Below, piece after piece: positions 21,500 to 45,118 of a DNA stretch of 53,729 bases. The position numbers and the translations under genes were made by a program. The notes under the pieces are model-generated. The model saw only the letters and a program-made list of their open reading frames with translations, searched no databases and had not been told where the DNA came from. This DNA comes from Nanobdellota archaeon (GTDB lineage Archaea > Nanobdellota > Nanobdellia > Woesearchaeales > GW2011-AR4): NCBI GenBank assembly GCA_022564635.1, contig JADFLA010000003.1, forward strand, positions 1 through 53,729, written 5' to 3'. How positions within the stretch are numbered: position 1 is the first letter of the stretch; each line of letters opens with the position of its first letter.

Positions 21500-21614
21500 C
21501 GCCGCGACCCGGATTTGAACCGGGAAACCCTTGCGGGAACTGGCTCTCAAGGCGTACACTTTTAGGTCAATATTGGCCTAAAATCAGCGCAATGCCAGAT
21601 TATGCGATCGCGGC
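21500..21614 (-). tRNA. tRNA-Ser(UGA) with a 31-nt intron at 29/30 (21554-21584)
   Basis: Acceptor GCCGCGA/UCGCGGC, G73, long variable arm. Spliced stem CUGGC/GCCAG around CUUGAGA; 84-nt mature form. BHB helix GCGC/GUGU predicts both junctions. Confidence 0.9.
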
Positions 21615-23647: not shown

Positions 23648-24709
23648 TTATTTTTTTTCTTCTTCATATATTTCAATGAAAGTTACAAGCATTGCAAGTA
23701 TTATAGGACCAATTATTATTCCTACAAAGCCAAGAAATTTTAAACCACCAACAACTCCGAGCAAGACAAGCACAGGATGTAAACCTCCTTTGCTACCTAT
23801 TATTTTTGGTTTCAATATATTATCTATTGTTCCTACAACAAATATTCCATAAAGCATAAACAGTATCCCTTTTATCATTAGAGTAGTTTCTGAATTAAGA
23901 TAGCCATTAAATATTAGTATTAAAGAGGCTGGAAACCAAATAATAGAGGATCCTACGTATGGAATCAAAGATGCGAACATCATGACTATGCCCCATAATA
24001 GAGGAGATGGCAGCCCAAATACAAAAAATCCAAGACCACCTAAAGTTCCTTGAATTATTGCAATTATTATGCTTCCATAAATTACTGCATAAGTCATATT
24101 ATTTAATTTTTTGAAAACATATTTTCTGTATTTGCTTTTTAATGGCATAATGCGCTCAACTTTATCGATAAAAATTTCTCCATCTCTAAAAAGGAAAAAC
24201 ATAACAAACAGTACAATGAACATGTCCAGAATAAATATTGGAACTGAAAATAGTATATTTGAAATGCTGCCAGTTATTTTTGTGGTAATGCCTTTAATGG
24301 TTGTATCAAAATAATATTTTGTTTGAGGGTCATTTATTTTATCAGAAACAAAATTTGAGATCTTACATACAGTTTTGTCTGCTGGTGTGCATTCTGTCAG
24401 GAATTGTCCACTAGCAAGTTTCTGTTTCGATAATAAATAAGTTGTATAAGCTTCTTTGGATAGGGTGTTAAGTACGAAAAATAAAGGCAAGGTTATTATT
24501 AAAATAACTAAGATGGAAGTAATTAAGGAAGAAATGTTCTTATTTCTAATTTTTTTATAAATTCTTGAATATAAGGGGTGGAATATATAGGAAAAAATTA
24601 TTCCAGTAAGCACAGCGGTAAGAAATGGTTTTATGATTAAAAATGATACTAGAATTAGAACTAAAAAAATCAGTGTAAAAAAGATCTTGCGGTATATTTC
24701 TGAATCCAT
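23648..24709 (-). CDS. AI-2E family (UPF0118) transporter
   Basis: IIAIIQGTLGG, LIPYVGS, DNILKPKIIG and GIIIGP motifs. Start MDSEIY at 24709, because the longer track ORF runs through tRNA-Val. Confidence 0.92.
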   Translation of the reverse strand: MDSEIYRKIFFTLIFLVLILVSFLIIKPFLTAVLTGIIFSYIFHPLYSRIYKKIRNKNISSLITSILVILIITLPLFFVLNTLSKEAYTTYLLSKQKLASGQFLTECTPADKTVCKISNFVSDKINDPQTKYYFDTTIKGITTKITGSISNILFSVPIFILDMFIVLFVMFFLFRDGEIFIDKVERIMPLKSKYRKYVFKKLNNMTYAVIYGSIIIAIIQGTLGGLGFFVFGLPSPLLWGIVMMFASLIPYVGSSIIWFPASLILIFNGYLNSETTLMIKGILFMLYGIFVVGTIDNILKPKIIGSKGGLHPVLVLLGVVGGLKFLGFVGIIIGPIILAMLVTFIEIYEEEKK

Positions 24710-24732
24710 TTTCTTGAGATTTGTATTCTGAA

Positions 24733-24899
24733 TGGGCCCGAAGGGACTCCCAAATCCCGACCTGCATGGTCTGGGATATTCGAACCCTTGATCTCCGCCA
24801 ATTCGATACCTTTCTAATGATTTATTTAATGTCGAGGCGACGTCATAGCTCCTAGTAGCGAGCGAAGCTACGCTTCGCATATCACTAGACTACAGGCCC
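24733..24899 (-). tRNA. tRNA-Val(GAC) with three introns: 18/19 (24850-24882), 37/38 (24801-24829), 59/60 (24747-24778)
   Basis: Removing 33+29+32 nt gives a 73-nt cloverleaf GGGCCUG UA GUCU AGUGGCUA UGAC G UCGCC UCGACAU GGCGG AGAUC AAGGG UUCGAAU CCCUU CGGGCCC A. Each intron has a 4-bp BHB helix. Confidence 0.88.
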
Positions 24900-24957
24900 A
24901 TAAATATGGGTTAAGAGTAGAGGATATAAAAATATTGCTATTAACTCAAAAATAACG

Positions 24958-43100: not shown

Positions 43101-43235
43101 GTTTCCCAGGAACCAAAGGTGAAAACAGAAAAAGTTATAAAGAACAAAGCTAAGGAAAAGAAGAAAGAGAAGGATAAGGTTAGAAAGTCTAGGCATAAAA
43201 AATCATCAATAATTAAAAACACGCGAAAATCGTAG
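40185..43235 (+). CDS. Cytoplasmic histidine kinase with three tandem ~230-aa unknown N-terminal repeats
   Basis: HisKA AAHELKTP, NLINNATKF, DTGMGI, FFQV, GTGLGL. Repeats start near 40254, 40953 and 41655. No TM. Confidence 0.92.
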   Translation: MMNGIFSIFKKEKPEVKETEIRVADGIIDYAVSLIKDKESIKEQLKEIDKIRKLPVDEREYSYLLVYLSLERVILAKKPAPTKEYFSRKILKKPKEFTQDGLRRTIRKKFEINKLGVYFRVLFLNEPQQSLILYELMFQEFMDLISDKIKKKIPDVILKENYDVLNGTKIENGKMDLSSVNEKIEEKQVNVEDIIIPFKNLFFVFYSNVVKSDGKELADKLVMDVYNFVEIYGHPLTSAAIQILPKITSKETKAAAAHRIVDYLSMLILRKDLIKPQIDKIADAETLPEEGKEKVYFSIYLELEKFMIDHLPPAVEKSFTREELRKEIREKINTQNLEHRFKLLFLGEKEQLIELFNMFYGLLLEQMVSFWAAGDLQKFVSENVKGTMLDSLGFTIEKKEIGFDVSETNIDTLPKNKLKDVIHDLSAFLLVLYKNAKETGGEKKAEKAISKAYKIMKEQYGMLPIFNDFVRAIPEGVLDYENKILLSPRAAEEVVTYITKILKKEKIEEHLKAMEETRKLPLEEQAEAFFNIYINLQHYIIEERPSFKGKEITLSDLKEKIRRHVNVKDLEDKFQLLFLTHDEVLVKLVRDLIKECIVNFIDKKALVEAVKDLTKKNSFLRNVEIDEEGLIDFEPFFDKLKKVEVAKVRVLSITLSKIVLAIYEKSKEILGELQAKKLFEIAYANLQKKYGANLLQVLRVIPKGILEAEKFELLGKEEIEKTAKEMVKIDTIKGEFMNIAAHELKTPLVPIISYLEMLLNDKRLARDQKEKLRICLSSAKREADLVSDILDISKLEAGSLKLEFETLDMVELLKEITDGLGPAIRGKKLAFKVEVPSKLPLVRGDKRRLTQVVSNLINNATKFTDKGSITVRAQMEKQNILVSVIDTGMGISKENIHKLFTKFFQVDSTARRKQGGTGLGLAISKGIIQGHKGKLWVESDGIGKGTTFSFTVPYLPTTEKEKMETQREQNSFVSQEPKVKTEKVIKNKAKEKKKEKDKVRKSRHKKSSIIKNTRKS

Positions 43236-43250
43236 ACTTTCGGTGAACTG

Positions 43251-44973: not shown

Positions 44974-45118
44974 TGCGAGGGAGGGGATTCGAACCCCCGG
45001 ATCCACTAAGGAACAGGATATCTTCCTTACATCAGAAGTGTTCCGTTATGGAATAGTTCTGGTCTTAAGTTTCGCACTAAATAGACCTGCGCGTTTAACC
45101 AGGCTTCGCTACCCTCGC
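44974..45118 (-). tRNA. tRNA-Leu(UAA) with two introns: 30/31 (45071-45085) and 37/38 (45020-45063)
   Basis: Removing 15+44 nt gives an 86-nt type II cloverleaf with CAGGA CUUAAGA UCCUG and A73. The first intron has a perfect CGCA/UGCG central helix. Confidence 0.87.

What the first reader, a model, noticed from the sequence alone, without database searches (positions are those of the whole stretch)
24733..24899. Triple-intron tRNA-Val split in the D-loop, anticodon loop and T-loop
Seen: intron 18/19 splits the conserved GG and carries the REP-like palindrome GCGAAGC-GUA-GCUUCGC. Intron 37/38 is canonical. Intron 59/60 uses an almost all-wobble helix UUCG/UGGG. The gene is hidden under the spurious N-terminal extension of the AI-2E ORF.
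Basis: seen in the sequence. Interest (0 to 1): 0.65.

Follow-up and report, generated by a model that had tools for sequence, protein, structure and literature searches.

The report
Three-intron valine tRNA gene
This is a real gene for a valine tRNA in a tiny uncultured archaeon (Woesearchaeota), cut into four pieces by three short introns; the type is already known in archaea and turns out to be routine in this genome, so it mainly matters for annotation.

Summary
Confirmed. On the minus strand of 24733-24899, removing 33, 29 and 32 nt (after G18, A37 and A59) leaves a 73-nt tRNA-Val(GAC) that ARAGORN accepts. Single-sequence evidence is only modest, because three free introns give much freedom. 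The comparative evidence is decisive. Twelve syntenic orthologues in related Woesearchaeales genomes all splice to 73 nt. Four lack the D-loop intron and read AGUGGCUA, and four lack the T-loop intron, exactly at the predicted junctions. The cloverleaf is 100% paired, with six compensatory pairs. Each intron keeps a 4-bp helix between two 3-nt bulges: CUAG/CUAG, UCGA/UYGR, and UUCR/UGAA or UGGG.

The genome holds one EndA, an RtcB ligase and a conserved TATA box upstream. About 14 of 29 detectable tRNA genes carry an intron at 59/60, and standard finders see only 12-14 tRNAs. The AI-2E ORF extension is spurious; the real start is at 24709. The "REP-like" palindrome is not a repeat family, with two copies in the genome.

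This is a new member of a known kind. Multi-intron archaeal tRNAs with up to three introns are published, and DPANN disruption was noted by Kaneta 2018.

Side points: the single alpha4-like EndA lacks all three published specificity loops, and C33 is conserved.

The parts
24923..24932 (-). Archaeal TATA-box-like element (UUUUUAUAUC on the gene strand), centred about 28 nt upstream of tRNA position 1
   Evidence: Read. The same CTTTTTATATA motif lies 23-30 nt upstream of the orthologues in G001, G004, G009, G012 and G016. Promoter function is inferred, not tested.
24883..24899 (-). Exon 1 (17 nt): acceptor 5' strand, U8, A9, D-stem 5' strand, D-loop up to G18
   Evidence: It is invariant or compensatory in 12 orthologues.
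24850..24882 (-). Intron 1 (33 nt) at 18/19, between the conserved G18 and G19. It contains the hairpin GCGAAGC-GUA-GCUUCGC. Its 3' end CUAG pairs with exon C12-G15. Bulges are UG^A and GA^G.
   Evidence: The intron is absent in G002, G009, G020 and G016, which read AGTGGCTA. It is 15-52 nt long in the seven other orthologues that carry it, all ending CTAG + 2 nt.
24830..24849 (-). Exon 2 (20 nt): G19 to A37, including the D-stem 3' strand, the anticodon stem 5' strand and the loop U32 C33 G34 A35 C36 A37
   Evidence: The same exon pattern with C33 is present in 44 of 301 genomes of the order.
24801..24829 (-). Intron 2 (29 nt) at the canonical 37/38 site. It is a strict bulge-helix-bulge: central helix UCGA/UCGA, bulges CA^U and AU^U, with the anticodon stem as outer helix.
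   Evidence: It is present in all 12 orthologues at 16-40 nt, and the central helix is kept with G.U and Watson-Crick alternations.
24779..24800 (-). Exon 3 (22 nt): U38 to A59 (anticodon stem 3' strand, variable loop AGAUC, T-stem 5' strand, T-loop UUCGAA)
24747..24778 (-). Intron 3 (32 nt) at 59/60 in the T-loop. Central helix is U54-G57 with UGGG, bulges are AA^U and AG^U, and the T-stem is the outer helix. The inner helix AUCCC/GGGAU has one extra U opposite the 5' bulge.
   Evidence: The intron is absent in G011, G014, G020 and G012, which read TTCGACT or TTCAAAT followed by the T-stem. It is 27-154 nt elsewhere. Fourteen of about 29 tRNA genes of this genome have an intron at the same site.
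24733..24746 (-). Exon 4 (14 nt): U60, T-stem 3' strand, acceptor 3' strand, discriminator A73. No CCA is encoded.
23648..24709 (-). Neighbouring AI-2E family transporter gene with its probable true start (MDSEIYRK...), 23 nt downstream of the tRNA. The listed 410-aa ORF (to 24880) runs through the tRNA gene.
   Evidence: Pfam PF01594 covers residues 68-405 of the long ORF. Orthologues start with ATGGATTCA or ATGAATTCA just after the tRNA. Intron lengths differ by non-multiples of 3 between species, so no frame through the tRNA is conserved.

Best explanation
The region is the single functional gene for tRNA-Val(GAC) of a Woesearchaeales (DPANN) archaeon.

Inferred: it is transcribed from a TATA-box promoter as a 167-nt precursor in which three protein-spliced introns interrupt the D-loop (18/19), the anticodon loop (37/38) and the T-loop (59/60).

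Shown from sequence and covariation: each intron pairs its 3' end with the four exon nucleotides just upstream of the 5' splice site. This makes a 4-bp helix flanked by two 3-nt bulges, the bulge-helix-bulge (BHB) motif.

Inferred from the established pathway: the genome's single splicing endonuclease EndA cuts after the second nucleotide of each bulge. RtcB joins the four exons. The CCA end is added afterwards, because none is encoded. The product is a 73-nt tRNA that reads GUU and GUC, which make up 57% of valine codons here.

The D-loop fold borrows C12-G15, so the D-arm can form only after that intron is removed. The T-loop fold borrows U54-G57 and leaves the T-stem as the outer helix.

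The introns are gained and lost quickly between sister species. T-loop introns are shared between different tRNA genes, so the site behaves as a landing place for mobile introns.
For: - Splicing gives a tRNA-Val(GAC) accepted by ARAGORN.
- Twelve orthologues, syntenic with the AI-2E gene where the downstream flank was read, all reduce to 73 nt.
- Intron-less alleles sit at exactly the predicted junctions for intron 1 (4 genomes) and intron 3 (4 genomes).
- The cloverleaf on the spliced alignment is paired in 240 of 240 cells. Six pairs change on both sides, and 0 of 500 shuffles reach this.
- BHB cores are conserved while intron bodies diverge. CUAG/CUAG is kept in 8 of 8 D-loop introns. UUCR pairs with UGAA or UGGG, including A57-U replacing G57.U. 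Inner helices covary, for example CCGUG/CACGG and CCUUA/UAAGG.
- Fourteen of about 29 tRNA genes in this genome have a 59/60 intron, and 12 of these end YGAA-AG^U.
- One EndA is present with Pfam N- and C-terminal domains and invariant Tyr127/His137/Lys168. RtcB is present.
- A TATA motif is conserved upstream.
- No second tRNA-Val(GAC) turned up in the own-genome BLAST. GTT + GTC account for 8875 of 15501 Val codons.
- Literature: 59/60 introns and three-intron tRNAs are known in archaea (PMC4090602, PMC4033280). Increased tRNA disruption with alpha4 EndA in DPANN is noted in PMC5829648.
Against:
- The 18/19 and 59/60 motifs are not strict. The D-loop one has no in-register outer helix; a 4-bp one (U8-A21, A9-U20a, G10-C20, U11.G19) needs a 1-nt shift. 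The T-loop one has an extra unpaired U and three G.U pairs.
- The EndA is a single alpha4-like protein without the CSL, ASL or N. equitans loop inserts. Published work regards this class as narrow in specificity.
- Position 33 is C instead of the near-universal U.
- My single-sequence null test is weak: real score 24.96 against a shuffle maximum of 24.6.
Confidence: 0.93

Rival explanations
1. It is a decaying tRNA pseudogene. The three inserts are junk insertions (hairpins, repeat fragments) that have inactivated an old tRNA-Val gene, and decoding of GUU/GUC is done by another tRNA.
For: Standard finders do not call the gene. C33 is abnormal. Two of the three BHB motifs are imperfect.
Against: Exons are 94% identical across 12 species of at least five genera and two families, with compensatory stem changes and no broken pair. 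The intron 3' ends that form the BHB are conserved while the intron bodies are not. A conserved promoter motif is present. No other Val(GAC) gene was found, yet 57% of Val codons need it. Half of all detectable tRNA genes in the genome have the same T-loop insertion, and they cannot all be dead.
Confidence: 0.03
2. The gene is real, but not all three inserts are EndA/BHB introns. The D-loop or T-loop insert might be kept in the mature RNA as an expansion, or removed by a different activity, since the only EndA is of the narrow-specificity alpha4 type.
For: EndA lacks all published specificity loops and there is no second subunit. The 18/19 and 59/60 motifs deviate from the strict hBHBh' form.
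Against: Orthologues without these inserts show that the functional molecule is the 73-nt form. Both inserts keep two 3-nt bulges exactly 4 bp apart in every species. The T-loop class has a genome-wide consensus YGAA-AG^U at the 3' splice site. G18/G19 and the T-loop must interact in a working tRNA elbow (established tRNA structure). ARMAN-2 and crenarchaeal T-loop introns are cut by EndA in vitro (PMC3488258, PMC3241643).
Confidence: 0.04
3. The stretch is protein-coding: the 57-residue N-terminal extension of the AI-2E transporter ORF is genuine, and the tRNA-like features are coincidental.
For: An uninterrupted ORF of 410 aa runs from 24880 to 23648.
Against: Pfam coverage starts at residue 68. 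In relatives the transporter starts right after the tRNA. The tRNA region differs in length by 28-209 nt, not multiples of three, so the extension is not conserved as protein. G+C content and RNA covariation fit an RNA gene.
Confidence: 0.005

Closest known systems
Multiple-intron tRNA genes of Thermoproteales (Pyrobaculum, Thermofilum, Caldivirga; Sugahara 2007/2008, reviewed in PMC4033280 and PMC4090602)
   Same: Up to three BHB introns in one tRNA gene. One intron is canonical (37/38) and the others lie at non-canonical sites including 59/60. The non-canonical sites have relaxed motifs. Introns are gained and lost quickly, and similar introns occur in different tRNA genes (intron transposition, Fujishima 2010). 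Here, Tyr(GTA) and Val(UAC) T-loop introns are 72% identical, and a sister-species Val(GAC) intron is 96% like that of another tRNA.
   Different: The lineage is DPANN/Woesearchaeales, mesophile-type with 31% G+C, not Crenarchaeota. The endonuclease is a single alpha4-like gene without the Crenarchaea-specific loop, not the alpha2beta2 enzyme. There is a strong preference for one site: 59/60 in about half of the tRNA genes.
Disrupted tRNA genes of DPANN archaea (ARMAN-2 T-loop intron of tRNA-Cys with epsilon2 EndA, PMC3239211 and PMC3488258; DPANN survey incl. a Woesearchaeota MAG in Kaneta et al. 2018, PMC5829648)
   Same: The same superphylum, T-loop and other non-canonical introns, incomplete tRNA sets with standard predictors, and alpha4-type EndA associated with increased tRNA disruption.
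   Different: Kaneta et al. link the DPANN alpha4 enzymes to the L3 (N. equitans/ARMAN-2) loop. In this genome and nine other Woesearchaeales the loop before the catalytic His is the same length as in M. jannaschii and lacks the 6-residue basic insert of NEQ205. This particular tRNA-Val family and its intron gain/loss pattern are not described in the papers I could read.
Canonical archaeal/eukaryal tRNA intron at 37/38
   Same: Intron 2 is a textbook case: anticodon stem, then a 4-bp helix formed by nt 32-35 with the intron, two 3-nt bulges, and cleavage after the second bulge nucleotide.
   Different: It is only one of the three introns. C33 takes part in the helix as a C-G pair.

Membership tests
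Archaeal BHB (EndA-spliced) tRNA introns / multi-intron tRNA genes | Removing the inserts restores a canonical cloverleaf tRNA | tested here: met
   A 73-nt tRNA-Val(GAC) is called by ARAGORN. All 12 orthologues give 73 nt. Pairing is 100%, with 6 compensatory pairs.
Archaeal BHB (EndA-spliced) tRNA introns / multi-intron tRNA genes | Each exon-intron boundary lies in a 3-nt bulge, with the two bulges separated by a 4-bp helix (strict form: also flanked by an outer and an inner helix) | tested here: met
   The 37/38 intron is strict. The 18/19 intron has the 4-bp helix and both bulges, with an inner helix of 2 bp plus a hairpin here (4-5 bp in four relatives); its outer helix forms only with a 1-nt shift. 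The 59/60 intron has the 4-bp helix (3 G.U), both bulges and the T-stem as outer helix, but its inner helix needs one skipped nucleotide. The core is met for all three. The strict form is met only for 37/38.
Archaeal BHB (EndA-spliced) tRNA introns / multi-intron tRNA genes | Orthologous genes without the intron read exactly the predicted spliced junction | tested here: met
   Intron 1 is absent in G002, G009, G020 and G016. Intron 3 is absent in G011, G012, G014 and G020. Intron 2 is present in all, so this test is not available for it.
Archaeal BHB (EndA-spliced) tRNA introns / multi-intron tRNA genes | The genome encodes the splicing endonuclease with its catalytic Tyr/His/Lys and an RNA ligase (RtcB) | tested here: met
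   EndA is at C10, 191 aa, with PF02778 + PF01974. Y127/H137/K168 are invariant in alignment A2 with the M. jannaschii and N. equitans enzymes. RtcB scores E = 2.7e-164.
Archaeal BHB (EndA-spliced) tRNA introns / multi-intron tRNA genes | A spliced mature RNA and excised introns are observed | not testable with these tools
No transcript data could be examined.
Broad-specificity splicing endonucleases (alpha2beta2 of Crenarchaeota/N. equitans; epsilon2 of ARMAN-2) | A second (structural) subunit or a three-unit fusion | tested here: not met
   jackhmmer of EndA against all ORFs of the genome finds only itself. One PF01974 hit of about 180-250 aa is found in nearly all of 60 relatives, including closed genomes.
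Broad-specificity splicing endonucleases (alpha2beta2 of Crenarchaeota/N. equitans; epsilon2 of ARMAN-2) | Specificity loop insert: CSL (L1), ASL (L2) or the basic N. equitans loop around the catalytic His (L3) | tested here: not met
   Pairwise HMMER alignments and alignment A2 show GVKPGE------DHAKW against NEQ GVIPKKGKRSEREHSKW, the same length as M. jannaschii. The 10-aa crenarchaeal insert seen in 2cv8 is absent, and the protein is 2 aa shorter than ARMAN-2 at the ASL. The C-terminal Trp typical of the broad-specificity enzymes (PMC3488258) is present (W188).
REP-like / MITE repeat family (for the palindrome in intron 1) | Many dispersed copies of the same palindromic unit in the genome | tested here: not met
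   GCGAAGC-N3-5-GCTTCGC occurs twice in 1.43 Mb, here and at C23:31331. BLAST of intron 1 finds only itself.

The most novel reading that the evidence does not exclude
Woesearchaeales splice pervasive D-loop and T-loop introns, relaxed BHB motifs included, with a single homotetramer-type (alpha4-like) EndA. This enzyme has none of the three loop inserts (CSL, ASL, N. equitans loop) that published work holds responsible for broad substrate specificity. It would therefore achieve broad specificity by another route, perhaps the C-terminal Trp188 and Trp140 it shares with N. equitans. Linked to this, the 59/60 site would be a landing pad for a mobile intron family with a YGAA-AG^U 3' end that moves between tRNA genes. 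C33 in tRNA-Val(GAC), present in at least 44 of 301 genomes of the order, would be either tolerated or edited to U after splicing.
Probability: 0.4. Interest if true: 0.55.

Novelty: new member of a known kind. Interest (0 to 1): 0.3.

Why it matters
The practical point is annotation. In this 1.43-Mb genome ARAGORN and Rfam see only 12-14 tRNAs, while at least 29 exist. The one for the commonest valine codons is hidden under a falsely extended transporter ORF. MAG completeness, codon-usage and 'missing tRNA' claims for DPANN archaea are affected by this.

Biologically it adds a well-documented case, with natural intron-plus and intron-minus alleles inside one genus, to the picture of fast tRNA-intron turnover outside Thermoproteales. 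It also gives a clean substrate set (strict 37/38, relaxed 18/19 and 59/60 in one precursor). That set could test whether a loop-less alpha4 EndA can have broad specificity.

Tried and rejected
- Direct detection failed. ARAGORN with and without introns, and Rfam tRNA, do not find the gene.
- My first brute-force BHB + ARAGORN ranking ranked by motif quality alone and picked wrong splice sets. I replaced it with a cloverleaf scorer, which still ties two D-loop solutions (AGGAGCUA against AGUGGCUA). The intron-less orthologues decide for AGUGGCUA.
- The null test with interior shuffles shows my scorer discriminates poorly, so I do not rest the case on it.
- I tried alternative anticodon-arm registers or splice sites that would restore U33. 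None keeps a 5-bp stem, a purine at 37 and a BHB, so I rejected them (reasoned on the sequence).
- The REP-like repeat idea for the intron-1 palindrome is rejected.
- The search for a second EndA subunit was negative.
- Loci from other genomes are not available to the Python box.
- Sugahara 2007 (PMC1852824) is not held, so I could not check whether 18/19 has been listed before.

Full report
**What is there.** The window is contig C66 of a 1.43-Mb, 74-contig, 87%-complete assembly with 31% G+C. It carries an archaeal RNase P RNA. Protein neighbours place it in Candidatus Woesearchaeota, which is GTDB Nanoarchaeota, order Woesearchaeales (record titles).

On the minus strand, 24899 to 24733 reads GGGCCUGUAGUCUAGUG / AUAUGCGAAGCGUAGCUUCGCUCGCUACUAGGA / GCUAUGACGUCGCCUCGACA / UUAAAUAAAUCAUUAGAAAGGUAUCGAAU / UGGCGGAGAUCAAGGGUUCGAA / UAUCCCAGACCAUGCAGGUCGGGAUUUGGGAG / UCCCUUCGGGCCCA. 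Joining the four exons gives a 73-nt sequence that ARAGORN calls tRNA-Val(GAC). It has a 7-bp acceptor stem, G18G19, a UUCGAAU T-loop and A73. The unspliced gene is invisible to ARAGORN and to the Rfam tRNA model.

**Is it more than chance?** Judged on this sequence alone, only moderately. With three removable segments there is much freedom. My own scorer gave the real sequence 24.96. Eighteen versions with a shuffled interior scored 18.1-24.6. The precursor is unusually stable: -64.6 kcal/mol, z = -3.8, with 0 of 200 shuffles as stable.

The decisive evidence is comparative. A BLAST of the locus against 60 related genomes found orthologues, which I read. They sit in the same place, directly upstream of the AI-2E transporter gene.

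- All twelve, from five genera of the same family plus one other family, reduce to exactly 73 nt.
- G002, G009, G020 and G016 have no D-loop insert and read AGUGGCUA, the predicted exon1-exon2 junction.
- G011, G012, G014 and G020 have no T-loop insert and read UUCGACU or UUCAAAU followed directly by the T-stem, the predicted exon3-exon4 junction.
- Intron lengths elsewhere range from 15 to 154 nt.
- G016 has an additional intron at 44/45 (GGCG/CGCC, bulges GA^A and AG^G).
- On the spliced alignment every one of 240 stem cells is a standard pair. Six pairs change on both sides, for example AAGGG/CCCUU against GAGUG/CACUC, GAGCG/CGCUC and CUGGG/CCCAG. No shuffle out of 500 reaches this, and slid registers collapse to 33-57% paired.

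**Anatomy of the three introns.**

- **37/38.** This is a strict bulge-helix-bulge. Nucleotides 32-35 (UCGA) pair with UCGA near the intron's 3' end. The bulges are CA^U and AU^U, and the anticodon stem is the outer helix. In relatives the partner is UUGA, UCGG or UUGG, which keeps pairing through G.U.
- **18/19.** Exon C12-G15 (CUAG) pairs with CUAG in the intron. The bulges are UG^A and GA^G. This core is identical in all eight intron-bearing orthologues, while the inner helix covaries (CCGUG/CACGG, CCUUA/UAAGG, CCUUG/CGGGG). There is no in-register outer helix. The MFE fold suggests U8-A21, A9-U20a, G10-C20 and U11.G19 with a 1-nt shift. Because C12 and U13 are borrowed, the D-stem cannot form until the intron is out.
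- **59/60.** In G001, G004, G009 and G052 they pair with UGAA instead. G009 has A57-U in place of G57.U. The bulges are AA^U and AG^U, and the T-stem is the outer helix. The inner helix AUCCC/GGGAU leaves one U unpaired. The junction could also be written 60/61, because a U flanks both ends.

**Genome context.** An acceptor- and T-arm-anchored search finds about 29 tRNA genes in the assembly, against 12 above the Rfam cut-off. Fourteen of them have an insert at exactly 59/60, and 12 of those end YGAA-AG^U. Others have D-loop, anticodon-stem or position-8/9 introns. The triple-intron valine gene is therefore typical of this genome, not an oddity.

T-loop introns are shared between different tRNA genes:

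- Tyr(GUA) and Val(UAC) introns are 72% identical over 89 nt.
- The 154-nt intron of the sister species' Val(GAC) gene is 96% identical in its flanks to the intron of a type-II tRNA at C18:3131-3391 of this genome.
- The middle of that 154-nt intron is a repeat with more than 20 copies here.

This matches the intron transposition described for Thermoproteales (PMC4090602).

**Machinery.** There is one EndA gene of 191 aa with both Pfam domains. No paralogue was found, and there is one copy in nearly all 60 relatives, closed genomes included. Its best solved relatives are the N. equitans catalytic subunit (3iey_A, 4e-35), then M. kandleri and M. jannaschii.

Alignment shows Tyr127/His137/Lys168 invariant. 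It shows no crenarchaeal CSL insert and no ASL. The loop before the catalytic His has the M. jannaschii length and lacks the six-residue basic insert of N. equitans (loop definitions from PMC3488258 and PMC5829648). It does share the C-terminal Trp of the broad-specificity enzymes. RtcB is present. The gene encodes no CCA.

GUU and GUC make up 57% of valine codons in long ORFs. No second Val(GAC) gene appeared, so the gene should be essential.

**The neighbouring ORF.** The 410-aa ORF 23648-24880(-) matches AI-2E_transport only from residue 68. Relatives start the transporter at an ATG just after the tRNA. The variable intron lengths rule out a conserved frame. The true start is most likely ATG 24709-24707, 23 nt after A73.

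**The palindrome.** GCGAAGC-N3-GCUUCGC occurs only twice in the genome, and intron 1 has no other BLAST match. In G011 the same position holds GCGAAG-UGCAG-CUUUGC, and in G014 it is degenerate. It is the intron's own hairpin, not a REP-type family.

**Comparison with what is known.** Introns at 59/60 and other non-canonical sites, and tRNA genes with up to three introns, are established for Crenarchaeota, especially Thermoproteales (PMC4090602, PMC4033280). T-loop introns cut by EndA are shown for ARMAN-2 (PMC3488258). Kaneta et al. 2018 (PMC5829648) already noted that DPANN lineages with alpha4-type EndA, including one Woesearchaeota MAG, show more disrupted tRNA genes. They also noted that their tRNA sets are incomplete with standard predictors.

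Earlier notes of this scan report four- and five-intron tRNA genes in other Woesearchaeota. These are unchecked by me. This gene is therefore a new member of a known kind.

The parts that go beyond the literature I could read:

- the natural intron-plus and intron-minus series within one genus;
- the dominance of the 59/60 site, with a consensus 3' end;
- the absence of any of the three specificity loops in the only EndA.

**Limits.** Splicing, promoter use and the oligomeric state of EndA are inferred. The tRNA census comes from my own heuristic scripts and is incomplete.

Noticed in passing
window 24835 (minus strand; tRNA position 33): The anticodon loop reads U32 C33 G34 A35 C36 A37 U38, with C instead of the near-universal U33. 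C33 is kept in 11 of 12 orthologues. The exon pattern TATGACNNNGCCTCGACR is in 44 of 301 genomes (36 genera) of the order, with 0 control hits. The U33 version of the same pattern is in only 3. Two more tRNAs of this genome appear to have C33: Pro(GGG) on C36 and intron-less Arg(UCG) on C71.
   Followed up: partly
genome contig C60:1039-1070 (outside the window): The rtcB ligase gene is interrupted by a 32-nt BHB-like insert between ...CMPDGH and WGYGFPIGG.... The central helix is GGUC/GACA with 3 of 4 pairs, and the bulges are AU^A and AG^U. Removing it restores the frame. The ligase mRNA would itself need tRNA-type splicing.
   Followed up: partly
window 44974-45118 (-): Another hidden tRNA gene, which ARAGORN miscalls 'Asn(att)'. 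By eye it is tRNA-Leu(UAA) with a 15-nt intron in the anticodon stem (30/31) and a 44-nt intron at 37/38.
   Followed up: partly
window 21500-21614 (-): Hidden tRNA-Ser(UGA) with a 31-nt intron inside the anticodon stem. ARAGORN miscalls it Leu(tag) with a canonical intron.
   Followed up: partly
genome contigs C32 (Tyr-GUA), C37:13413-13579 (Val-UAC), C18:3131-3391 (type-II tRNA): T-loop (59/60) introns are homologous between different tRNA genes. Tyr and Val(UAC) introns are 72% identical. The C18 intron is 96% identical to the flanks of the tRNA-Val(GAC) intron of sister species G001. This suggests intron transposition or conversion between tRNA genes.
   Followed up: partly
L006 (genome G001) T-loop intron nt 20-76; copies in this genome e.g. 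window 43216-43245: The middle of the 154-nt T-loop intron of the sister species is a short repeat with more than 20 copies (80-100% identity) in this genome. So a dispersed hairpin repeat does invade tRNA introns in this genus, though not the introns of the gene studied here.
   Followed up: partly
genome contig C23:31329-31348: This is the only other copy of the palindrome (ATGCGAAGC-AAT-GCTTCGCT). It lies in a G+C-rich stretch that looks like another structured RNA. Its identity was not determined.
   Followed up: no
L011 (genome G016): The orthologous tRNA-Val(GAC) there has a different three-intron set: 37/38, 59/60 and a 26-nt intron at 44/45 with a perfect GGCG/CGCC helix, and no D-loop intron.
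   Followed up: yes
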